A stretch of 64,000 nt of DNA from Eledone cirrhosa. Taxonomy: Eukaryota. Every line of letters starts with the position of its first letter. Positions within the stretch are counted from its first letter, which is position 1. Where the stretch lies: assembly GCA_964016885.1 (NCBI GenBank), contig OZ024740.1, forward strand, positions 104,656,001-104,720,000, in the 5' to 3' direction. The notes beneath the pieces were generated by a model. The model ran no database searches, was not told where the DNA came from, and worked only from the letters and a program-made list of their open reading frames with translations. A program made the position numbers and the translations under genes. Shown here in pieces: positions 1 to 54,871 of this stretch.

Positions 1-283
1 GTATGGATGTTAATGTATGTGTGGATGTGGATGTTTTTAGTTATATGTGTGCATGTGCATATGATTTGTATCTGTACATATGTATATGTAGTTATTAGAT
101 GTAGAATTTTGTTTTACATTTTTTGTTTTACATATTTTTACTGCTCCATTAATCGATTGTACTTGTAATTTCCTAACTAGTCGTGTTCTTTCTGTTTCTG
201 TGAAGCCTAGCTTCTCAAGATTTGTACTGAGGCAGTTACTAACATACCCCAGTGCCCCAATAATCACAGGTATAAATCTGAAG
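1..283 (-). mobile_element. R4/Dong-clade non-LTR retrotransposon, 3' fragment (end of RLE domain plus 3'UTR; subfamily b)
   Basis: ORF 37..267 IIGALGYV...LVRKLQVQSINGAVKICKT is a typical RLE-element C-terminus. The DNA matches 27270-27365. The 5' truncation point abuts (CATA)n at 284. Confidence 0.75.
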
Positions 284-734: not shown

Positions 735-1478
735 CTAACCAGCATTGTTACAAGTAATTTTATAACACATATTTGAGCAGTCCACAAGCCACTGTGGGGC
801 ACAGCTACGATAAAAGGATTTTATTTGAACTGGGCATCCCATCACACATAGAGACGTGATCATGATTAAAATACTCATCACACTCATTATACAAAACATT
901 ATTATACTTCTGCTCCAAAAAATGCTCCTTGTATTTGTGTGCACAAACTTATAATCTGTTGTTGTGACTTTATTTCTCTCAAGCAAACCTTCCCCAGTAA
1001 CGACTTTTACAAAAATTGGTGTTGGGTTTATTAGTTTTTTAAAAGGATTGTCAATGTAATGTTTTTTAATATCTTCGGCCTTCTTGTGGAATATCATTCG
1101 CGAGAGTTTCTCTGCCAAACGTTTCTTGCCTATCTGATGCAATCGTAGTGAGAGGTCATGAAAAGTCTTGTACTTTCCTTTATTTTGATCATAATTTAAT
1201 AACAAAATTAAACAAGGAATTGCAGGTGGATTGGTAATGTTTTTAGTTTTAGTTTGGGTTTTAGTTTTAGTTGGGATTTTAGATTTTTTAAGTTTTTTTG
1301 ACATTTTCCATGAGTTTGAATTCAGAGCTTTCACCAACTTGTTGCACTCTCTAATAGTCAGATGGTCAGCTATGAACTGAAGTTCATGAATATTCATATC
1401 AATTATGCCATTACCTTGTTCTATAATGTAGCAAAGGAGTACAAACCAAAGTTGTTTGAATATTACTTTAAAGTTCAT
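735..1478 (-). CDS. TMDD1: transmembrane and death domain protein 1-like (signal peptide, death-domain-like region, TM helix, Cys-rich tail); probably a first coding exon
   Basis: Uninterrupted non-repetitive 247-aa ORF. It has an N-terminal hydrophobic signal (LWFVLLCYII) and a TM segment IIMFCIMSVMSILIMITSLCVMG. The motifs IADHLTIRECNKLVKAL and CLILLLNYD...TFHDLSLRLHQIGKKRLAEKL match my recollection of vertebrate TMDD1 (LAELLTPEEC...; C..L..W...[21 protein letters not shown]). The stop codon overlaps a possible donor G/GTTAG at 739. The symbol means '-like' and was assigned by eye. Confidence 0.65.
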   Translation of the reverse strand: MNFKVIFKQLWFVLLCYIIEQGNGIIDMNIHELQFIADHLTIRECNKLVKALNSNSWKMSKKLKKSKIPTKTKTQTKTKNITNPPAIPCLILLLNYDQNKGKYKTFHDLSLRLHQIGKKRLAEKLSRMIFHKKAEDIKKHYIDNPFKKLINPTPIFVKVVTGEGLLERNKVTTTDYKFVHTNTRSIFWSRSIIMFCIMSVMSILIMITSLCVMGCPVQIKSFYRSCAPQWLVDCSNMCYKITCNNAG

Positions 1479-1841
1479 AACTGCTGATGTTCGCTGTTTT
1501 TTATGAATTCTTCTTCACTTTCAGTTAAATTCCTTCAAAGTTTTGTTTCATTCCTATCAAGTTCCTTAACCAGGACTTAGACTTCTCTCTGTCCTAGTTC
1601 AATTCCTTAACCAGAACTTCTATTTCATTTCCTGGTAGCTTATCTTGAATTTTTCAACTGTTTCTTTCTAGAACTTTCTGCCCTTTCATTCCAATTCTCT
1701 GACTGCTTATTGCTGGTTTCTTTCCACTCTTTCAGCTGCTTTCTCCTGAATCAAGAACAAATGCTTGCCATGAGAGACACACAATATTTTGAGATATCTT
1801 TGTATAAGAGTATTTAAAAAATCTAGAATGAATTACAGTAT

Positions 1842-31830: not shown

Positions 31831-32512
31831 ACAACAAAGACGACAATGATGATGATGGTAATGATGATGATGAAAGAAAGGGATTATTTCTGACAAAAAG
31901 ACTCACCAAGCTTCATCATTGTAATTAGATATCAACTACAGTACACAATTATATTCTGAATTTTAGAAATGTCTTGCATATTTTGAATGTTCTCTTTACA
32001 GATTGTATTTGCAGAATGTGAGTTAAATTCTATCTTTCTTTACATTAACACCCCAGTTTATCAAGATTATTATGTAAAGATTCAATACCTTAACCAAGTA
32101 TGCAAATAATGAGAGATACACACATATATATATATAATACAAATAGTGAAAACAATGAAATTAAACAAAATACAATTTCTTTAGTTCCATCTATATTCCT
32201 CTACTTGTTCTATTTTTAGAACAAATTATTCCTCTTGAACAAAGAAATAACAAATATTTAGGATTGTTCTATACTATTCTACTGGATATAACACATTGAT
32301 ATCTGCACCCCTTTTCCTCCAACTTTAATCTTCCTTGACCGTCCACACTTTTCTGAAATTTCTATACAAACTGTCTAAATTCCTTTACACTCGCAACTTT
32401 CTTTTCTTAAAGGTCATTCGATACCTCATCCCCTGACTGCTAATTTATCCATCTACTACTACCAACTTAATGATCTATATTGGTCAATCTCAACCTTGTT
32501 CTTAAAAGGTTA

Positions 32513-32780
32513 TGTAGCGAAGCGACACCTGTCGTGTGCTTGGGGACAGCTATGCAGAGTTACCTACACATAGCTCTGACGTCACAAACCGACGTCACCA
32601 AAAATAATTCACTCTCCGGCGGCGACTTGCGAAGAGACAATACGCACAATTTTGGAGCTGACTTCTGCCTTTTCTCTCTAGAGATGACTTCTGCCTTCTC
32701 TCCCTAGAGATGACTCCTACCTTCTCTCTCTCTTCTTTATATGTTCCAGTCTTGGAGTCAAGACCAACTCACTAACTACA
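32513..32780 (-). mobile_element. possible solo LTR
   Basis: TGTAG...CTACA ends, a TATAAA on the minus strand and three internal ~28-bp repeats; no TSD found. Confidence 0.3.
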
Positions 32781-32971
32781 CCATCACGACACATTGTAAA
32801 ATATTTCTATTGTGTTATTATTGACTCCTGTGATATAAAACTTTGTACAAACACGCACCAGCCATTCTTATTCTTTTTAATATTATTATAAGTAATATAT
32901 ACACCAATACTTGTCATCTAAAGTTACTTATTCATACATGTTTTTATATTCTTCAATAAACAAAACTCATT

Positions 32972-33090
32972 TGAGTTCAAATCCCGCCGAGGTTAACTTT
33001 GCCTTTCATCCTTACGGGGTCGATAAAATAAAGTACCAGTAATGTACTGGGTAATTCGTGGCCTTGTGTCAAAAAGTAGAAACAATTATT
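32972..33090 (+). mobile_element. 5'-truncated tRNA-derived SINE
   Basis: B box GAGTTCAAATCC, core GCCTTTCATCCTT.CGGGGTCGATAAAATAAAGTACCAG, ATT tail; full copies at 55673-55860 and 56101-56292. Confidence 0.8.
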
Positions 33091-33219
33091 TCTGAAGACA
33101 GTGGGTAGAGAAGATGTATGTATATTTTCTTATTTTGATAATTTGTAATATATTTTACATAGATCACTAATAGAATGAACATACGCAGAACTACCCCCCA
33201 GAAACGATCATAAAATAAT
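33085..33219 (+). ncRNA. type I hammerhead motif with ~100-nt stem II domain
   Basis: Stem I ATTATTT/AAATAAT; core CTGAAGA 33092-33098; stem II GGGTAG/CTACCC; GAAA 33201-33204; near-palindromic stem III ACGATCAT; site after 33212. Paralog at 41466. Confidence 0.6.
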
Positions 33220-33882
33220 GAGTTTTACTATGAATTACCCATATTTTGTTTAATTTCATTGTTTTCACTATTTGTATTATTTTGACTCTGCTTCCAATGA
33301 ATTATATCGTTGAAATTTTGTATTTTAAACTTTGCTTCACAACATCTACATACGGATTACATTGTGTTCTTCATACGGCTTGGACCCTACCATTAATTGG
33401 TGGATTTATCTGTGTATATATATATATATATATGTATGTATTAATTTGTCCTAACTCCCTTATGAATGAGTATAAATTAGGCTGAAATAGACTGCTTCTT
33501 CCAGCAACCCTGCAGGTGTAGCGAGCCGCATATGTTCTAGCCATTAGAAAAATGCTTCACTTTTGAAAGAAGGAGAAGGGAGAGGAAATATTCATATTCT
33601 GGGTAGAGAAGTTGTAGGTTGTGAAGAAGTTGGCCTTAACATTCTTTCTCTCACCAATTTTTAATGAAATATTCGATTCTGGTTACTGGCTTACCTCCAA
33701 AACAGTACATAATTTTCGTTTTCTGTTCCAAACAAACTATATCACATGTGTTGTGTTTGTATTTGGCAAAAGTTTTATGTTGGAATATCCAACAAATATG
33801 TTGTATGCTGAAACATACGAATATATACAACATTTAAAATATTTTCCATAATATCTGCCCTAAGTTCTTATGAATGGCAATA

Positions 33883-34299
33883 TACAAGGATAGGCTGAAA
33901 AGTTCATAGGCTGACTATGAAAGAGTGATGCTAGAGCTGTGAAATCTTGCATGCATTAATTTCAACTCTTCTTATTAATAACTGCACGAGAGTATCATGG
34001 TCAGCCTATGATTGTTTCTGTGATATTTAGCTGCAAGTTAACAACTCTGACAGGACAGACCTGTGATCACCCTGTCTTTTTTCCTATGTGCAGGGAACCC
34101 AATTCACATTATATGAGGGTAGGCTGAAAGGTTCATATGAATCAGCTAGGGCTGTGAAATCTTGCATGTATTAATTTCAACTCTTCTTATTAATAACTGT
34201 ACTGTTTCTTTCTGAGCACTATGTTGAAAAATAAACTTCATTTAGTCATTCCAAAAGAGAATCTTGGTCAGCCTATGAACTTTCCAACCGACTTTCGTA
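33883..34299. mobile_element. two mariner-type MITE copies (33883-34010 deleted; 34112-34299)
   Basis: Same TIRs as 2598-2792. Confidence 0.75.
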
Positions 34300-34642
34300 T
34301 GTTGTTTTGTTGATAATGCCATGACACATAAAAAAAGTTAGTACCTTCATGAAATTCAATATTTGTAAACAGCAAATCTCTGAGTTACTTTGAGTTGTAG
34401 TTTCTGTGCATTCTATATAGTACTCTTGATACAGTGAAGATATCCTAATATACTTCTTTTCACAAACCTATATATAATCCCTATGAAATACAAATGTCTA
34501 TCAAATTTTCTCCAGTATTCAATAGAAAAATAACTAAAACTGAAAAATTCACTGATTATAGCCCTTCTCTTATTGAGTTTTAAAATATTTTCTCCAATTT
34601 TTTTTTGTAAACTGCCATTATTGTTAATGTTTTTCCTCAGAG

Positions 34643-35105
34643 TGTAGCAAAATCTGTCCACCCCTTGACCCCTAGATGACATTAACAGTCATTTTGTGGG
34701 TTACCTCCTTTTTGGCATAAACAAGTCTGGGCTTGGGCAATCTCTTGAGGTCTCCCCTGCGGTTCTCAAGGCAGGGGGAAGAGGAAGCGACAGCTATAAA
34801 TAGCCTATTTTAGACCAAGCAACAAGCAGTTCTTGACAGAGTAAACATGTAAAACATTTACTTTCTACAGACTCCTTTGGGGTCTTACAGACTCTTACTC
34901 TCTCTCTCTTTCACTCAATCTCTATCTCTTGGTCTCTCTCTTAACCAAGACACTGAAGTTCAAACAAATAATGTACATAATTCTTGTCTATTTCTTGTGT
35001 AGCTCCAGCGTAAACTATTTTCAATAAATTAATAATATAGTGGTTTGGTGTCATCATAGTTCATTTATATATATTCATTTTCTGCGTGATCAAGGAACTA
35101 TTATA
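34643..35105 (+). mobile_element. possible solo LTR
   Basis: TGTAGC start, TATAAATAG at ~34795, CT-rich stretch, AATAAA at ~35023; 3' CA and TSD not found. Confidence 0.35.
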
Positions 35106-35384
35106 TTATCATCATCTTATTGAACACTTACTCACTTACCTGCACACATGCAACCCCTGGTCACACTGTATCACACAACAGTGACCACACGACACAGCAA
35201 GTTACAAGTGAGCACGCACACAACAAATGAATCAATACCACAACACAATCAACTCACTACCAACATCGACCAACAAACAATCACTATAAGGGTTCATACC
35301 ATAAAAAAACACATTAGCAGCTATGAAACGTGTAATAATAAAACTAAGTACTATATAAAGTCTCATATATATATAAAAAAAAAA

Positions 35385-35662
35385 AGTCTAAAGTCTGTCT
35401 TAAGCCAGAAGGCTCATTTGGCCGGTGCTTATCCCGGTTTCATGACGTGAAGTGACTGAGAGTACAAGACTCCCCCTTGGACCGGACACCAGTCCATCGC
35501 AGTGTTAAACCTCCAGCTATTGCCGGTACTCATGTTCAGCTGAGTATACTGGAGCAACGTGAAATGAAGTGTTTTTCTCAAGAACACAACCCAGCCCAGG
35601 AATCGAACACGACATTATGATCGTAATTCCAACACCCTTACCACTAGGCCATGTGCTTCCAC
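35385..35662 (-). mobile_element. full-length tRNA-derived SINE
   Basis: A box TGGCCTAGTGG, B box GTTCGATTCC, conserved-type body GCGATGGACTGG.GTCC.GTCCA.GGG, tail AGACTTT repeat. Confidence 0.75.
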
Positions 35663-35666
35663 ATAT

Positions 35667-36560
35667 ATCATCATCATCATTTTACGTCCGCTTTTCCCTG
35701 CTTGCAAGGGTGGGACGGGTCTTATTCAGCACAGCATCTCTCCACTCGTCACGGTCCCTCGTCATCTCCACCGTGAGCTTCAATGATCTGAGGTCTGTTC
35801 TCACCACCTCCGCCCATGTTTTTCGTGGTCTACCTCTACCACGTCTTCCTTCAACTGGCAAGTCCTGGCACTTCTTTACCCATCGGTCATCCTCCATGCG
35901 CATCACATGTCCATACCACCTTAGTCTCCTCTCCCGTACACTACATTCTATCCCTCTCAGACACAGTTTCTCTCTCCACACATTTATGCTGGGTCGTTCA
36001 CGCACATTTACACTGCACATCCAACGGAGCATGCTTGCCTCATTTCTCTCCAGCCATCGCATATCCTCTGCAGTTGCTGCCCATGTCTCACTACCATGCA
36101 GCATCGCGCTCCTCACACAGGCATCATACAACCGGCCTTTCGTACGCAGGGAGAAACCCTTCTTCGTCAACAGAGGAAGCAGCTCCCTAAACTTCTTCCA
36201 ACCCGTCCTTATTCTAGATACTATGGCCTCGGAACACCCTCCTCCCATGCTAATCTGATCTAGGTACCGGAAGCTATCCACCACTTCTATAGCGCCCTCT
36301 TGCATTTGAAAAATGTGTCTATCACTATCATCATCATCATCAATGTCTGTTTTTTCCATGCTTGGATGGGTTGGATGAGATTTTTCCAGCACAGCTTCCT
36401 TTTATCTACTGCTTTTCTTCATCATCTCTTTTCCTCTATTGCAGCTTCCTTCCATTGGGAATACCTGGCTCTTTTCACCCAACAATTATCATCCATACAC
36501 ATCACATATCCATACCAGCGCAGCCTTCCCTCTTGCACACTACATCTGATTTCTCTTATA
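35667..36560 (-). mobile_element. two RTE 3' fragments in tandem (35667-36310; 36327-36560)
   Basis: FRYL...LHGSETW...RLRWYGHVMRM...GRPRKTW...KTRPTLASREKRT; each has a (GAT)n tail. Confidence 0.85.
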
Positions 36561-36731
36561 CCCACTATATATAGATATATATATATATATACCATCTTGA
36601 AGTATGTATATTAATTTCCATATTATTTGTTCTGTACATGTCAACATGAATGGACCTGTTATTTTTATCTAAAGACATTTTTTCCAATTCCATCCCGCCC
36701 GTCCCCTCAATCTATTTTATTTCTCATTCTT

Positions 36732-36767
36732 TCTTCTGATGAAGGACTAGCGTCCGAAACGTTAAGA
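36732..36767 (+). ncRNA. minimal type I hammerhead (Penelope-like type)
   Basis: TCTT-CTGATGA-A-GGAC tagc GTCC-GAAA-CG-TT-AAGA: stem I TCTT/AAGA, palindromic stem III ACGT, GTT site at 36763. Confidence 0.8.
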
Positions 36768-37067
36768 CCCTCTTCCTGCTATATCAAGCGTTAACCTAAT
36801 ATATACCTTCCATATACTGTACCGATTATGTTATTTCTGTTTACCTTTTACATACATATATATATCATCATCATCATTATCATCTATCTTCAACACTAGC
36901 ATGGGTTTAGACGGGAATTGTCTTACTTGAAGCAAGATTGGTCGGGTGACCATGTCTCACTCGTATAGGGCTGTCTGGCAGGTTTTCTACGGCTGGATGC
37001 CCTTCCTAACACCAACCACGTTTACAGTGTATATATATATATGTTCCCACACATTTATATATATATA

Positions 37068-37446
37068 TCATTTTTTTTCTTTTTACGTCTGCTTTTCCCT
37101 GCTTGCAGGGGTGGGACGGGAACTGATTCTGGCTTGATTTCTACAGCTGGATGCCTTTCCTAACACCAACCTCATTTACAGTGAGTGGTGGGTGCTTTTT
37201 TTCCGTGGCGCCTACAAGACCACTTTACAGTGTGGGCTGGGTGCTTTTTTGCCGTGGCACCTACACGTCCACTTTACAGTGGAATGATAGGTCCTATCAT
37301 CTCATTTCTACAACCGAGTAAACTGGAGCAATGTGAAATAAAGTGTCTTGCTCAAGGAAACAACACATCACCCGGTCTGAGAATTGAACTCACAACCTTT
37401 CGATTGCAAGCCCAATACTCTAACCACTAAGCCATGTGCCTCCATC
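37068..37446 (-). mobile_element. composite SINE: tRNA head, central domain, RTE 5'UTR-like body and RTE 3' tail
   Basis: A/B boxes TGGCTTAGTGG and GAGTTCAATTC. The tail CCGTCCCACCCCTGCAAGCAGGGAAAAGCAGACGTAAAA is almost identical to the LINE end at 35680-35720. Second copy at 53923-54230. Confidence 0.8.
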
Positions 37447-37507
37447 TCATATATATATATAGATATATATATATATATATGCATGTGTATATGTATATGT
37501 ATATAAT

Positions 37508-40500
37508 AAAACTACGGTGACAGTAATATCTGCGTACGCACCCCAATCCGGACTGCCCGGCGCTATAAAAGACAGATTCTACGAGACACTGATGCTCGCT
37601 ACCTCCCAAATAACCGACAGTGACTATATAGTTATTGCAGGCGACCTAAATGGTCACGTTGGACAACATTGTGACGGCTATGACGGAATCCATGGAGGCT
37701 ATGGGTTCGATACTAGAAATGAGGAAGGCTCCAGAATCCTGGAATTCTGCGACGCAAATAACTTAACTATCTGTAACACTAACTTCAAAAAACGAGACAA
37801 TCACTTGATCACCTATAGATCGGGGGAACACACAAGCCAGGTAGATTATATCCTTACCAGAAGACGTGACAGAGTGTCTGTTGTTAACACTAAATCCCAC
37901 CCCCATGAAGAATTCACCTCCCAACATAGACTGATAATTAGCGACCTCATAGTCAGGACGAGACGTACTAGACAGCGGAAGAGGACTATCCTCAGGAGAA
38001 AAATATGGAAGCTAAAGGACCCCATAGCCAGAAATAAATTTCAAAGCATATTACTTGACGCTTTCGACAGTAAGGAAGAGCAATTAGAGTCGTATAATAT
38101 AGAGGAACAGTGGGAATTCCTGAGAGCAAACCTGCTGACGGCGGCAGACGAAGTCTGTGGCTGGAGCAGGCCTGTAGGTAGGAGGAGAGTAACATGGTGG
38201 TGGAACAGTAAGGTGGAGGAGTCAATTAAGGCCAAAAAGCAGGCTTGGAAAGTATGGCGGGATGGGGGAAGTAGAGAAGACTATCAAGTGGCCAGGAGGG
38301 AAGCTAGGAGACAAGTGTACTTCGCAAGAAGGGAAGCAGAGGAAAGAAAGTTCAAGCATGTTCTACAACGTGAGGACCAAAAACGTGAGGTGTTCAGGAT
38401 TGCCAGGCAATGTGTCAAGGAAAAGCGTGATATTGTCGGGGAGAAGTGTGTACTTAACGATGATGGCATACTTGCCATCACCGACGCTGATAAGAAGGTA
38501 GCTTGGAAGTGTCACTACGAAAGGCTTCTAAATGAGGAGAACAAATGGGAGAAAGACAGTCTCCCCCAGATCGATCCAATAGAGGGACCAGCAGTGTTAG
38601 TTGAAGGTAGTATAATAAGTAAGGCAATCAAAGATATGAAGACGGGTAAGGCGGCTGGGCCTTCGGAAATAGTTGCTGAGATGCTGAAGGCATCTGGTTC
38701 GGTGGGACACACCATGGTCACCCGGATAGTTAACCAAGTCGTACAGAATGGGGTTGTTCCGAAGGAATGGCATAGCAGCATCATCGTTAACTGCTATAAG
38801 GCAAAAGGAGATGCCCTAGATAGGAGTAACTATAGAGGCATTAAATTAATTGACCAGGTTATGAAGGTCACGGAAAAAGTAATAGCGCAACTAATCAGAG
38901 AGAGAATTGATCTAGATGAAATGCAGTTCGGGTTTGTGTCAGGCAAAAGTACCACAGACGCTCTTTTCATTGTACGACAACTACAGGAGAAGTACCTAGC
39001 TAAAAGTAAACCCCTATACTTAGCTTTCGTCGACTTGGAGAAAGCCTTCGACAGAGTCCCCCGTTCCATTATCTGGTGGTCTCTTAGAAAACTAGGTGTT
39101 GACGAATGGCTTGTGAGAGCTATACAAGCCATGTATAAAGAAACAGTCAGTAAGGTTAGAATTAACAACGAATATAGTGAAGAGTTTAGCGTAAAAGTTG
39201 GTGTCCATCAGGGCTCTGTTCTTAGCCCCCTACTATTTATTATTGCCCTTCAGGCTATAACAGAGGAGTTCAAGACCGGCTGCCCATGGGAACTCCTATA
39301 CGCAGATGATCTAACGCTCATAGCTGAATCAATGACCGAACTAGAGAAGAAATTCCAAACATGGAAGCACGGCCTAGAATCAAAAGGCCTTAAAATTAAC
39401 CTGGCTAAGACTAAAGTTCTAGTTTGTAGGAAAGAAAATAAGGCGGCGGTCCCATCTGGGAAATGGCCATGCTCAGTGTGTAGGAAAGGCGTAGGTAGAA
39501 ACTCCATTTTATGTCCCAAATGCAAAGTATGGGTGCATAAAAGATGTAGTGGGATCACAGGTAAGCTAACTAAGAACATAGATTTTACATGTGGCCGGTG
39601 CTCTGGTGCAATAAGTAGCAGCAAGTGCCCACAAAATACTAGCTCCTTCAACTGCGCAGAGGGTTCTATAGAAATAGTGGACAGCTTCCGTTATCTGGGT
39701 GACAAAATCAGCAGTGGGGGAGGGTGCTCTGAAAGTACAGTAGCTAGAGTCAGAACTGGATGGAAAAAGTTCAGAGAGCTTATACCACTATTAGCCGCTA
39801 GAGGGTTCTCCCTAAAAATGAAAGGCAGGTTATACGATGCCTGCATACGAACAGCAATGCTGCATGGCAGTGAGACCTGGGCATTGTGTGCAGAGGATAT
39901 ACGCAGACTAGAGAGGAACGAAGCTTGCATGCTCCGCTGGATGTGTAACAGTAATATACGTGAACGGCAAAGCATAAACGAACTAAGGAAAAAATTAGAA
40001 ATAAGAGGGATCAGATGTTGTTTACTCGAGAGAAGGCTACGTTGGTACGGTCACGTGATGCGCATGAAAGACGACAGCTGTATAACAAAGTGCAGGGCAA
40101 TAAAGATAGACGGTAGCCACGGAGTAGGCAGACCCAGAAAAACATGGGACGAGCTGATAAATTCTGACCTCGCACGCTTACACCTCTCCAAGACAATGTC
40201 ACTGGACCGAGACCTTTGGCGGTACTCAGTAATAGAGAAGACCCGCCTCACCTAAATACAAAGTAAAAACCTACTACAGTCAGTAGGCATCTCTATCAAA
40301 ACACACCCCCGTCCCACCACCTCCACACCGCCCCTTTCAATGTAAAGTTATGTTGGTCCCACAACATCCAGGCCGAAACAAATGAGATCGTGTAGGTGTC
40401 ACGACAAAAAACACACAGTCCACGCTGTAAATGTGGCCGTGTAGGCAACACGGTAAAAACCTCCCAGCCCCACACTGTAAATGTGGTTGGTGTTAGGAAG

Positions 40501-40753
40501 GGCATCCAGCTGTAGAAAACCCGCCAGACAGTCCACGCTGTAATATGGCCGTGTAGGCAACATGGTAAAAACCTCCCAGCCCCACACTGTAAATGTGGTT
40601 GGTGTTAGGAAGGGCATCCAACTGTAGAAAACCCGCCAGACAGTCCTATGCAAGCAAGACAACCACTCTTGCCTCAAGTGGGAAAACCCCCGTCCAAACC
40701 CATGCAAGCGTGGAACACGGACGCTAAACCTGATGATGATGATGATGATGATG
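37508..40753 (+). mobile_element. young 5'-truncated RTE-PHD LINE with ~500-bp 3'UTR and (GAT)n tail
   Basis: Contains an uninterrupted 912-aa ORF; the 3'UTR has an internal ~120-bp tandem duplication. Confidence 0.95.
37517..40255 (+). CDS. RTE retrotransposon polyprotein (partial APE, RT with embedded PHD finger)
   Basis: SAYAPQ, GDLNGHVG, VDYIL, SQHRL (APE); NYRGIKL, DLEKAFD, GVHQGS, LLYADD, FRYLG (RT); C4HC3 finger at 39470-39601. The APE N-terminus is missing. Confidence 0.92.
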   Translation: MTVISAYAPQSGLPGAIKDRFYETLMLATSQITDSDYIVIAGDLNGHVGQHCDGYDGIHGGYGFDTRNEEGSRILEFCDANNLTICNTNFKKRDNHLITYRSGEHTSQVDYILTRRRDRVSVVNTKSHPHEEFTSQHRLIISDLIVRTRRTRQRKRTILRRKIWKLKDPIARNKFQSILLDAFDSKEEQLESYNIEEQWEFLRANLLTAADEVCGWSRPVGRRRVTWWWNSKVEESIKAKKQAWKVWRDGGSREDYQVARREARRQVYFARREAEERKFKHVLQREDQKREVFRIARQCVKEKRDIVGEKCVLNDDGILAITDADKKVAWKCHYERLLNEENKWEKDSLPQIDPIEGPAVLVEGSIISKAIKDMKTGKAAGPSEIVAEMLKASGSVGHTMVTRIVNQVVQNGVVPKEWHSSIIVNCYKAKGDALDRSNYRGIKLIDQVMKVTEKVIAQLIRERIDLDEMQFGFVSGKSTTDALFIVRQLQEKYLAKSKPLYLAFVDLEKAFDRVPRSIIWWSLRKLGVDEWLVRAIQAMYKETVSKVRINNEYSEEFSVKVGVHQGSVLSPLLFIIALQAITEEFKTGCPWELLYADDLTLIAESMTELEKKFQTWKHGLESKGLKINLAKTKVLVCRKENKAAVPSGKWPCSVCRKGVGRNSILCPKCKVWVHKRCSGITGKLTKNIDFTCGRCSGAISSSKCPQNTSSFNCAEGSIEIVDSFRYLGDKISSGGGCSESTVARVRTGWKKFRELIPLLAARGFSLKMKGRLYDACIRTAMLHGSETWALCAEDIRRLERNEACMLRWMCNSNIRERQSINELRKKLEIRGIRCCLLERRLRWYGHVMRMKDDSCITKCRAIKIDGSHGVGRPRKTWDELINSDLARLHLSKTMSLDRDLWRYSVIEKTRLT

Positions 40754-41465
40754 ATATAGGGGGGTATAGATGTGTATGTGTGGATATAGATATGTATGGA
40801 TATGTATATATATGATTATATGCATGCGTGTGGATGTGTATTTAGGTTTGCATTTATTTGCACGTATGTATATTTTGGTTAGATATCAATATAACTGTAC
40901 CTCTCTATATGTAGTGTGAATATATGCACTTTGTAGACTATGAAATTTATGTGTTTTAACTATGTCAACATGTACTTATCTGAGTTTGATTGTTTATGCA
41001 TAAACATACTTATTAATATTTTAGAACGTATAATATGTTATATTATACTGAGTGCAATTTACCACACCGTACTATATTGTGTTGGTTAAGTTGTATATTA
41101 TCGCATTACTATATCTCATCTTATTATAATTTTCATCTTTTAATATACTATCTTTCCTAGCCATAACATTAATTTATATTCACCTTAAAACTCAATACAA
41201 CACTAATCACCATTTATTTTGACATTCCTTTTAAATTCACTATACAAGATACATTCAACTATCAGCTTGACAATCCCTTTCGTTCCTAATAGATTTTTAT
41301 GCCATTTCTACTAACACCTTTCAACCATTCCTTTCAAAGGGTCATGACCTCAACTAAAGTGTATTACTTTTCATCTTAACACCATATGAAAAAAACAATT
41401 TCATTTGTTAGTTCTTCAACTACCTCCAAATATGGACATGATACTAATTCTGAGTAAAATTATTA

Positions 41466-41599
41466 TTGGTTTTGAAAACAGCTGGTGATATGCATGTAAG
41501 TAAATATTCTCTCTATATGATAGTTTGTAAACTTACATAGATCAATAACTGAGTATTGATACAATGTATTATCATCATCTAGAAACGATCGTAAAGCAG
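41466..41599 (+). ncRNA. type I hammerhead motif, U3-A8 core variant, long branched stem II
   Basis: Stem I TTGGTT/AAGCAG (one mismatch); core TTGAAAA 41472-41478; stem II AGCTGGTGATA-TGCAT/ATGTATTATCATCATCT; GAAA 41582-41585; palindrome ACGATCGT; GTA site at 41593. Confidence 0.55.
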
Positions 41600-41944
41600 C
41601 GAAGTATATCTCTAATGACTTGATTTTTTATTTCATTGTTTTAACTTATATCATGACTGTTTTTCTTTTAATGTTTTTGTTTTCTGAGATTTATCTTAAC
41701 CTACAACATTTTCAACATATGGATTACATTGAGTTCTTCATACAGAATAGACCCCACGGTTTTTGGGGGTGCCTATACTATTCTCATTTATCCTTGAGCT
41801 ATTCCTATTGTAATTAATGATAGCAGGAGAATGAAGGTTGCTTTGTGGGTGGTTTGGTGCTAGAGTTGTATTGCAATTTTGTGTTCTGTTGTTTTTGTGT
41901 TGGTGATTTGGGTGGTTGTGTTTTCTAGTTTATTAATTAATTCT

Positions 41945-54417: not shown

Positions 54418-54531
54418 TTTTCGGTATGCCTGACCTTAACTCACTCGATATGCAAATTAGGCTGCTCAGCCATTAATTTTCATAAGGGAAGTATATACTT
54501 TCGAACGTTCAACTATCTGGCAGAAGGGTAT

Positions 54532-54574
54532 ACGGTGCTGATGATAGCTAACAAGCTTGAAACTAGTACATCGT
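54532..54574 (+). ncRNA. minimal type I hammerhead (Penelope-like type)
   Basis: ACGGTG-CTGATGA-T-AGCT aaca AGCT-T-GAAA-CTAG-TA-CATCGT: stem I ACGGTG/CATCGT (one G-U), palindromic stem III ACTAGT, GTA site at 54568. Confidence 0.75.
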
Positions 54575-54871
54575 TCCTGTGTCAGTGTTGAACAAAAAGG
54601 TGACGTGGTTGCCTTAACACTGTATGGCATAAATCAGGCTGTTCAGTTTGTTTACAAACGAACAAAGTGGCGTTATAATAAGCGTCCGCTAAACTGATAC
54701 GTGCATATATGTATGTGTACCTGTATGTGTATATATATATATGTATATATATATGCATGCTACTGTACGTCTGTATACATATATGTATGTACGTATACAT
54801 ACATACTTACATTTAAGTAAGTGCCGTACTAAGAGTGAGAAATGAAATTTCGTTTTCATTTTATTTCAACT

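What the first reader, a model, noticed from the sequence alone, without database searches (positions are those of the whole stretch)
33085..41599. Paralogous hammerhead pair with ~100-nt stem II and C3-G8 to U3-A8 covariation
Seen: 33085-33480 and 41466-41820 share downstream blocks (TACATAGATCA, AGAAACGATC, ATTTCATTGTTTT, GGATTACATTG.GTTCTTCATAC). Stems I and II differ completely in sequence yet still pair. The core is CTGAAGA in one copy and TTGAAAA in the other. In the 41.5-kb copy stem II encloses two further hairpins (GTAAGT/ACTTAC and ATCAATA/TATTGAT). Established: the 3-8 tertiary pair tolerates U-A. Inference: a hammerhead subclass with a large branched stem II and palindromic ACGATCGT stem III that length-limited searches would miss. 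Caveats: the base of stem II is mismatched in both copies, and stem I at 33085 overlaps a SINE tail.
Basis: partly seen in the sequence, partly recalled or inferred. Interest (0 to 1): 0.8.

Follow-up and report, generated by a model that had tools for sequence, protein, structure and literature searches.

The report
Long-armed hammerhead in Penelope-like retrotransposons
Both spots are decayed ends of Penelope-like jumping genes that carry, in over 5,600 genomic copies, a predicted self-cleaving hammerhead RNA with an unusually long (about 100-base) unbranched arm, which likely overlaps the element's own transcription start and a splice site.

Summary
The motif is real, but it is not a two-copy pair. 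Each locus is a decayed 3' end (pLTR) of a Hydra-clade Penelope-like retrotransposon. Related copies sit 1.2-1.6 kb downstream of an RT/GIY-YIG ORF and end in (TA)n. An exact core pattern with an 88-108-nt spacer hits 5,675 places (control 1), in at least four lineages. Stems I and II covary strongly. C3-G8 (about 4,392) and U3-A8 (1,160) dominate; mixed cores are about 2%. N7 and N17 vary as a hammerhead allows. Corrections: stem II is an unbranched 99-126-nt rod (48 of 51 copies), and the branched fold is private to the 41.5-kb copy; a SINE is inserted into stem I at 33085. U3-A8, the palindromic stem III and the mismatched stem II base are already published for PLE hammerheads. New in my searches: the long stem II (missed by Rfam), a conserved splice-donor hexamer buried in it, and copy 5' ends piling up 7 nt upstream of the core rather than at the cleavage site, which suggests a capped transcription start. 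Cleavage, transcription and splicing are untested; no RNA data were found.

The parts
32134..32172 (-). inverted short fragment of the family-A 3' tail beside (TA)n; typical inverted, 5'-truncated PLE arm
   Evidence: blastn; sequence
32301..32972 (+). family-A 3' UTR (homologous parts about 32301-32512 and 32920-32972; unrelated sequence between), with AATAAA at 32955-32960 and the displaced outer 5' strand of stem I (32962-32972)
32973..33084 (+). 5'-truncated tRNA-type SINE inserted into the 5' strand of stem I
   Evidence: 463 exact junctions of this kind genome-wide
33085..33226 (+). hammerhead copy A: remaining stem I 5' strand 33085-33091 (33085 = modal 5' boundary, putative +1), core CTGAAGA 33092-33098, stem II rod 33099-33200, GAAA and stem III 33201-33212 (G16.2->A decay at 33210), predicted cleavage after 33212, stem I 3' strand 33213-33226
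33116..33121 (+). splice-donor-like GTATGT at +32 from the modal 5' boundary, paired inside stem II (inferred, untested)
33227..33434 (+). family-A terminal tail with the conserved block at 33354-33376, element end at about 33414, then the (TA)n target
40881..41462 (+). family-B 3' UTR (5'-truncated copy), AGTAAA at 41453-41458
41463..41602 (+). hammerhead copy B: stem I 5' 41463-41471 (one private C->G), core TTGAAAA (U3-A8) 41472-41478, stem II 41479-41581, GAAACGATCGTA 41582-41593, predicted cleavage after 41593, stem I 3' 41594-41602
41496..41501 (+). splice-donor-like GTAAGT at +32 (inferred, untested)
41603..41757 (+). family-B terminal tail, conserved block 41721-41743; the last ~25 nt of the element are missing here
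41758..41878 (-). inverted fragment of the same element's ORF (linker before the CxCX5C motif) fused to the tail
   Evidence: tblastn

Best explanation
The two loci are decayed 3' ends (pLTRs) of two lineages of a Hydra-clade Penelope-like retrotransposon, each carrying a type I hammerhead fold whose stem II is a conserved ~100-nt unbranched rod; the intact ribozyme is predicted to cleave weakly and only as a dimer, and the rod likely doubles as the promoter and splice-control region of the pLTR. SHOWN: the element anatomy, copy number, covariation of stems I and II, core conservation, and a sharp pile-up of copy 5' ends 7 nt upstream of C3. INFERRED: (i) Pol II starts at the A of TCA-TT in the 5' strand of stem I, so the ribozyme sits at the 5' end of pLTR-initiated RNA. 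(ii) A 5' splice donor at +32/+33 lies inside stem II; its intron (~345 nt) would run to a TAG just before the ORF of the next tandem unit, and splicing would remove the GAAA half, the cleavage site and most upstream ATGs to give the mRNA. (iii) When the rod folds, the donor is buried, the intron is retained, and this unspliced, uncleaved RNA is what RT copies. (iv) The 2-bp stem III with its GAUC palindrome is unstable alone and stable between two molecules, so dimers could self-cleave, removing templates or processing tandem transcripts.
For: Anatomy: N-terminus-RT-EN-3'UTR-hammerhead-tail-(TA)n, with pLTR-ORF and inverted arms in lineages A and B and C and D. An intact 810-aa ORF has RWR, DKT, YRDD, CxCX5C, CxxC and CxH motifs, matching the Hydra definition (PMC8557442 section 11); nearest Atlas clusters carry GIY-YIG, HTH_animal or RVT_1. 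Copy number: 5,675 vs 1 control. 3-8 pair: U-A 1,160, U-G 60, C-A 63, C-G about 4,392 by subtraction. N7 is A/G/C/T at subfamily level. H17 is A, or U in lineage D (18 of 96 copies). Counting pairs outward from the core, 17 of 17 chosen positions are canonical in A, B and C, 8 with double changes, and 24 of 24 between-lineage differences keep the pair. Within C/D, 98.3% of cells are paired. Across lineages 23 of 43 pairs have double changes, 0/500 shuffles. A fifth family with a 62-nt rod and a different sequence keeps the same base (C.A, 2 bp, Y.Y, stem). Stem III: hairpin +2.4, duplex -10.0 kcal/mol. 5' ends: 69 of 154 non-SINE copies lose homology at stem I, 63 of them within 8 nt of C3, mode exactly -7 (22); 76 of the other 85 run on past about -60. 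G at -8 in 7 of 18 unambiguous junctions vs 14% background, p=0.008, as a copied cap would give. Lineage A has AGACGT at exactly +28..33 (read from sequence; compare the Penelope DPE RGACGTGY, PMC2377424). A donor-like hexamer occurs in the +28..34 window in 194 of 221 copies, with mean unpaired probability 0.00-0.02 in A, C, D and 0.31 in B. TTTAG before the ORF is conserved in A, B and D; the lineage-A 5'UTR has 5 ATGs unspliced and none in the spliced part examined. Precedent: TSS and 5'UTR intron in the pLTR of Penelope and Chlamys-3 (PMC2377424, PMC8557442).
Against: There is no RNA or biochemical evidence. There is no genomic footprint of cleavage: of 30 tail-selected copies, 12 begin at stem I, 1 near and none exactly at the scissile bond. 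The canonical G10.1-C11.1 pair next to G12 is absent and no loop I-loop II contact is evident, so activity may be low or nil. Copies are not independent: the double changes are a handful of lineage-level events, U3-A8 is one, and alignment A5 was fitted to the structure. The 17 positions were chosen after seeing the fold, and 4 B3 copies were mis-binned into C. The 5'-end classes are regex heuristics (at least 2 mis-calls seen) and both arms of head-to-head pairs were counted. The DPE match is in lineage A only, and B1/B2 lack the C of TCA. No precisely spliced copy was seen among 77 short-spacer hits (read by eye; this tests only the short intron). GTTGAGCT is conserved before the ATG in other Hydra families without the TAG, which weakens the acceptor. 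In B, splicing would leave a short uORF.
Confidence: 0.6

Rival explanations
1. An ordinary PLE hammerhead whose stem II simply grew. The rod only has to close helix II; the inner conserved sequence is a binding site for the element's RT/EN protein or inherited similarity, and the 5' pile-up comes from 3'-end processing at the AATAAA just upstream or from an RT stop, not from a promoter.
For: AATAAA or AGTAAA lies 5-8 nt upstream of the -7 boundary in all four lineages. The lineages are only 14-34% diverged. Stem II length varies (62, 99-126 nt) and lineage D has slippage duplications at the apex. Other hammerhead families in this genome have 14-36-nt stem II.
Against: The hexamer-to-boundary distance is shorter than the usual 10-30 nt (own knowledge). 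The extra G at -8, the fixed donor position and B's GTAAGT (keeps the donor consensus while pairing less well) favour a start plus donor.
Confidence: 0.25
2. A non-cleaving hammerhead-derived structure. The fold is kept as a dimerisation or packaging signal (GAUC palindrome) that brings two RNAs into one particle and yields head-to-head insertions in (TA)n; catalysis is lost.
For: Many head-to-head pairs have both arms ending at stem I. There is no boundary at the scissile bond. Published PLE hammerheads are poor catalysts (PMC4209133).
Against: The changes follow catalytic rules: 3-8 swaps as a pair, N7 is free, and N17 is A or U in the subfamilies seen. My patterns could not have found G17, so that rule is only partly tested. 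Inverted arms also occur in Naiads, which lack canonical hammerheads (PMC8557442 section 6).
Confidence: 0.12
3. Chance resemblance to a hammerhead in an AT-rich repeat.
For: No Rfam hammerhead hit even at E<=10. The 41.5-kb copy alone folds no better than shuffles (z -0.91).
Against: Covariation in both helices, core conservation across five families, and the position expected for PLE hammerheads.
Confidence: 0.03

Closest known systems
Hammerheads of Hydra-clade Penelope-like elements (Craig et al. 2021, PMC8557442, File S2)
   Same: Type I hammerhead near the 3' end or pLTR of an RT/GIY-YIG element with RWK-, DKT- and CxCX5C-type motifs and (TA)n targets; an extra base after A9, often opposite an unpaired base before GAA (U.U in many Hydra families; C.A in PLE-X1_cBra).
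   Different: The listed Hydra stem II inserts are about 10-26 nt and the longest in the table (PLE-X1_sMoe) about 53 nt; here 99-126 nt. The 3' UTR here is 1.2-1.6 kb. The listed cephalopod family Hydra-1_Obim has a short canonical hammerhead and is a different family.
Minimal or dimeric PLE hammerheads (Cervera and de la Pena 2014, PMC4209133; Lunse et al. 2017, not held, known only from citations)
   Same: Palindromic short helix III needing dimers; a nucleotide between A9 and 10.1; a U3-A8 variant (about 1,300 hits in Schistosoma).
   Different: Their consensus keeps G10.1-C11.1 and a helix II of about 4-8 bp.
Drosophila virilis Penelope and Chlamys-3_cRei pLTR promoter and intron (PMC2377424, PMC8557442)
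   Same: TSS in the pLTR, Inr/DPE-type internal promoter, a retained 5'UTR intron; in Penelope the intron end maps to helix I of the hammerhead.
   Different: Here the putative donor lies inside stem II and the putative intron would remove half of the ribozyme; none of it is shown experimentally.
Clec2 discontinuous hammerhead (as described in PMC6155905)
   Same: Core halves far apart in sequence, so size-limited searches miss it.
   Different: Type III, a 150-1500-nt insertion in helix I, in a host mRNA; here type I, with a paired rod in helix II, in a transposon.
Non-LTR retrozymes (PMC7229834 abstract listing; bioRxiv 10.64898/2026.07.22.740005)
   Same: Type I hammerhead; short non-coding copies derived from PLE pLTRs.
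   Different: These copies are dispersed 3' ends of protein-coding elements, not tandem arrays.

Membership tests
Hammerhead ribozyme (type I) | Core C3 U4 G5 A6 N7 G8 A9 / G12 A13 A14 A15.1 / U16.1 H17 | tested here: met
   Present in the family alignments picked by DNA similarity, with U3-A8 in lineage B; N7 variable; H17 A or U
Hammerhead ribozyme (type I) | Three helices around the core, supported by covariation | tested here: met
   Stems I and II. Stem III is 2 bp and invariant, so it carries no covariation evidence; it is broken in the 33-kb copy
Hammerhead ribozyme (type I) | G10.1-C11.1 pair closing stem II next to G12 | tested here: not met
   C.A mismatch then an R-Y pair in all lineages (the C and A were fixed by my pattern but are also seen). 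Similar mismatches are listed for Hydra/Chlamys PLE hammerheads
Hammerhead ribozyme (type I) | Loop I-loop II tertiary contact | tested here: inconclusive
   The terminal loop is too far away; the conserved C.Y mismatch at pair 4 of stem II could be a contact; nothing shown
Hammerhead ribozyme (type I) | Match to an Rfam hammerhead model | tested here: not met
Hammerhead ribozyme (type I) | Self-cleavage after NUH | not testable with these tools
   Needs an in vitro assay or cyclic-phosphate sequencing
Hydra-clade Penelope-like element | Single ORF, RT followed by a C-terminal GIY-YIG endonuclease | tested here: met
   810-aa ORF; weak Pfam GIY-YIG hits on EN fragments, below the curated cut-off, and none on the full ORF; Atlas neighbours
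Hydra-clade Penelope-like element | RWK, DKT, CxCX5C, CxxC and CxH motifs | tested here: met
   RWR, SDKT, CNCRNKANC, CRLC, CNH read; definition
Hydra-clade Penelope-like element | (TA)n target, pLTR tandem, inverted 5'-truncated arms, hammerhead near the 3' end | tested here: met
Hydra-clade Penelope-like element | Generally short (<3 kb) | tested here: not met
   2.4-kb ORF plus 1.2-1.6-kb 3' UTR plus hammerhead and tail, about 4 kb
Hydra-clade Penelope-like element | RT phylogeny inside the Hydra clade; CCHH motif absent | not tested
   No reference proteins held; motif comparison with the published Hydra sequences was by eye
Non-LTR retrozyme | Tandem non-coding repeats with no protein | tested here: not met
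   Dispersed copies linked to an ORF

The most novel reading that the evidence does not exclude
A PLE hammerhead that is a folding switch: transcription starts inside stem I, and a ~45-bp stem II rod hides the 5' splice site, so each RNA either splices out half of the ribozyme to become mRNA or folds the ribozyme, keeps the intron, dimerises through the stem III palindrome and becomes the reverse-transcription template. This would link intron retention, the hammerhead and the head-to-head insertions of Penelope-like elements in one mechanism.
Probability: 0.25. Interest if true: 0.8.

Novelty: new variant of a known kind. Interest (0 to 1): 0.5.

Why it matters
The role of hammerheads in Penelope-like elements and the reason these elements keep their introns are both open questions (PMC8557442 section 15). 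This family gives thousands of copies in several lineages, young near-identical ones and an intact ORF, with a base-precise predicted start, donor and cleavage site, so both questions can be tested directly. It also shows that Rfam models and short-spacer descriptors miss abundant hammerheads with long stem II, so PLE families scored as lacking one may deserve a second look.

Tried and rejected
Rfam: no hit at gathering score in the window; no hammerhead at E<=5-10 on 7 loci or on either window copy, including natural copies with stem II partly deleted. RNAalifold on the MAFFT alignment across lineages recovered stem I and the apex but not the base of stem II, because of misalignment; I used core-anchored counting and a model-fitted alignment instead. 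Sequencing runs: no RNA holder listed; laying two runs' contigs says nothing on expression or ends. Spliced genomic copies of a 42-49-nt mini-intron (donor to TTACATAG): none precise among 77 hits. Short-stem-II versions of this family (spacer 4-34): 26 hits, read as internal false starts or private deletions. Family 'F' is a canonical short hammerhead preceded by a second CTGAGGA and was rejected. SINE as a hammerhead-specific element: rejected, since it has 132,507 exact tails and inserts at ATTATT generally (22 of 31). PDB search and Pfam on the full ORF gave nothing. Earlier findings: three look-ups, all empty. Lunse et al. 2017 is not held and one supplement of PMC4209133 could not be searched; either could list long-stem-II variants.
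Full report
OBSERVATION. Copy A: core CTGAAGA at 33092, 102-nt insert, GAAACGATCATA at 33201. Copy B: core TTGAAAA at 41472, 103-nt insert, GAAACGATCGTA at 41582. Rfam sees no hammerhead in the window at gathering score or in either locus at E<=10. Folded alone, A has z -3.4 and B z -0.9.

THEY ARE REPEAT COPIES. DNA searches of the 3.0-Gb own genome gave 2,088 and 1,839 first-look candidates (40 scored each, 90-96% identical). A core pattern with an 88-108-nt spacer matches 5,675 places against 1 for the reversed control; the 23-nt tail block matches 5,469. These searches revealed a third, most abundant lineage C and a young lineage D with a GUU triplet and a 105-126-nt stem II, which my GTA pattern does not count. 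Lineages are 66-86% identical over the motif; median nearest-neighbour identity is 0.945 (A, 6 copies), 0.972 (B, 50), 0.992 (C, 68) and 1.000 (D, 19).

THE ELEMENT. In 12 fetched regions of A and B and 7 of C and D, the order where present is N-terminus, RT, endonuclease, a 1.2-1.6-kb 3' UTR, hammerhead, a ~200-nt tail, (TA)n; some copies have the hammerhead segment directly before the ORF start (pLTR) and many have an inverted truncated arm (one of the 7 had no ORF match). L345 holds an open 810-aa ORF with RWR, SDKT, YRDD, CNCRNKANC, CRLC and CNH. These are the diagnostic motifs of the Hydra clade of Penelope-like elements (PMC8557442; seen: section 11, section 6, passages, supplement parts 1, 2, 52). 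Pfam support is weak (GIY-YIG E 0.001 and 0.022 on fragments, nothing on the full ORF); Atlas neighbours at 0.96-0.98 carry GIY-YIG, HTH_animal or RVT_1. The window copies are truncated, decayed 3' ends. That the host is an octopus-like cephalopod is my recollection from the SINE sequence and comes from no call.

STRUCTURE. In family A stem I is a perfect 14-bp helix that the SINE has split in the window copy. Stem II is one interrupted rod: 9 of 9 subfamily consensuses (z -1.5 to -6.4) and 48 of 51 natural copies. The branched fold belongs to window copy B, is 1.2 kcal/mol better than the rod there, and depends on private substitutions. Counting pairs outward from the core needs no alignment: at 17 positions (chosen after seeing the fold, leaving out the two mismatches) the commonest pair is canonical in A, B and C, with double changes at 8, and 24 of 24 between-lineage differences keep the pair (91 copies, 4 mis-binned). 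Within C/D alone, 98.3% of 596 cells pair and 3 pairs change on both sides (84/500 shuffles reach that count; 1/500 reach the covariation score). A model built from C/D finds both window copies (E 1e-12, 3.5e-9). On a 24-copy alignment fitted to it, 23 of 43 pairs change on both sides (0/500 shuffles; slid controls 3-10); this leans towards the model and counts inherited changes many times. The base of stem II is always C.A, two pairs, a pyrimidine mismatch, then helix; a separate family with a 62-63-nt rod and a different sequence keeps the same base. The apex GAU-ARUU-UGUA/UACA-UAG-AUC is nearly invariant.

CORE. U3-A8 1,160, U3-G8 60, C3-A8 63, C3-G8 about 4,392 by subtraction. Mixed cores are about 2% and scattered, as expected from decay after insertion. 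U3-A8 is fixed in lineage B, so it is one event. N7 differs between subfamilies (A, G, C, T) and N17 is A or U. Stem III as a hairpin costs +2.4 kcal/mol and as a two-molecule duplex gives -10.0, the known dimer arrangement.

WHAT IS KNOWN. Cervera and de la Pena 2014 (PMC4209133; seen: parts 1-2 of 4 of the text and a supplement search) report PLE hammerheads with palindromic helix III, an extra base after A9, a U3-A8 variant and low activity even as dimers. File S2 of PMC8557442 lists U.U and C.A at the base of stem II and inserts up to about 53 nt. Nine paper searches showed no report of a ~100-nt stem II or of a donor inside stem II; Lunse et al. 2017 was not held and one supplement could not be searched. 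Also seen: PMC2377424, PMC6765202, PMC10085705, PMC6155905, PMC6466107 (passages), PMC13725137 (abstract and outline), bioRxiv 10.64898/2026.07.22.740005 (part 1 of 5).

5' ENDS. Among 163 pattern- or tail-selected copies, 9 have the SINE in stem I; of the other 154, 69 lose homology at the 5' strand of stem I (63 within 8 nt of C3, mode exactly -7 in 22), while 76 of the remaining 85 continue past about -60 (heuristic classes, both arms of inverted pairs counted). In a fresh sample read by eye, 11 of 40 B and 12 of 39 A/C copies end there, and none of the other 27 A/C copies ends between -13 and -75. Of 30 tail-selected copies, 12 begin at stem I and none exactly at the scissile bond. So the RNA that RT copies is uncleaved and often has a fixed 5' end at TC|ATTATTT. 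That site reads as an initiator (TCA+1; consensus recalled). G stands at -8 in 11 of 22 junctions, 7 of 18 unambiguous ones against 14% background (p 0.008), as copying a cap would give. Lineage A has AGACGT at +28..33, the DPE position. A donor-like GTATGT, GTAAGT or GTAGGT lies in the +28..34 window in 194 of 221 copies and is predicted to be paired in the rod. In pLTR-ORF tandems a pyrimidine-rich TTTAG precedes the ORF in A, B and D, giving a ~345-nt intron, like the 398-nt intron of Chlamys-3 that spans the pLTR boundary. Against this: AATAAA lies just upstream and could also create the end; the DPE is in A only; no spliced copy was found; GTTGAGCT is conserved without the TAG in other families; no RNA run was listed.

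MECHANISM AND VERDICT. Shown: a hammerhead-type fold under selection, in the pLTR of Hydra-clade PLEs, with a long unbranched stem II and a fixed 5' boundary. Inferred: start in stem I, donor hidden in stem II, spliced RNA as mRNA and folded unspliced RNA as template, weak dimer cleavage. I put the identity of the element and fold at about 0.95, catalysis at about 0.6, the transcription start at about 0.55 and the splice switch at about 0.25-0.3.

Noticed in passing
window 32973-33084; L039, L043, L057, L097, L154, L159-L162, L170: A tRNA-type SINE (132,507 exact tails; target ATTATT in 22 of 31) has inserted independently at the same base of stem I in lineages A and C: 463 exact junctions, with different truncations and duplications. 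Possibly above its background rate, which was not measured; an open promoter would fit.
   Followed up: partly
window 54528-54578 (+), core at 54538: A second, short hammerhead family (CTGATGA, 14-nt stem II, palindromic stem III) also seen in L029, L036, L061, L099, L109.
   Followed up: no
L051 (minus strand, four cores at 310-nt spacing); L120: Tandem 310-nt repeats each with a short hammerhead, retrozyme-like.
   Followed up: no
L319, L325, L332, L091:642-730: Family E: hammerhead with a 62-63-nt rod and the same stem II base; 4 of 4 copies seen begin about 30 nt upstream of the core and end in (TA)n; no ORF in these loci.
   Followed up: partly
L008, L011, L012, L016, L024, L035, L044, L049, L054, L091: Several other hammerhead families with 20-36-nt stem II and AT-rich palindromic stem III; this genome is rich in PLE hammerheads.
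   Followed up: no
L345:3871-6303: An open 810-aa Hydra-type RT/endonuclease ORF of the youngest lineage; the family may be recently active.
   Followed up: partly
L110, L121, L123, L137, L153, L329, L345: GTTGAGC is conserved about 25-50 nt upstream of the start codon across divergent Hydra families; function unexplained.
   Followed up: no
L149, L195, L204, L091: Short reiterations of the first 7-13 nt at the 5' boundary, as if RT re-copied the template's 5' end.
   Followed up: no
window 33354-33376 and 41721-41743: The 23-nt tail block is nearly invariant across lineages (5,469 exact copies); a candidate RT recognition signal.
   Followed up: partly
window 735-1514 (-): 259-aa open frame that does not look like a transposon (signal-like start, helical domain, hydrophobic end); possibly a host exon or retrocopy.
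   Followed up: no
window 5.4-6.3, 10.1-10.8, 13-15, 16.5-18.8, 23-26.7, 29.5-30.5, 37.5-40.3, 51.7-53.5 kb: Many LINE fragments with RT ORFs (RTE-like and others; clade names recalled, not tested).
   Followed up: no
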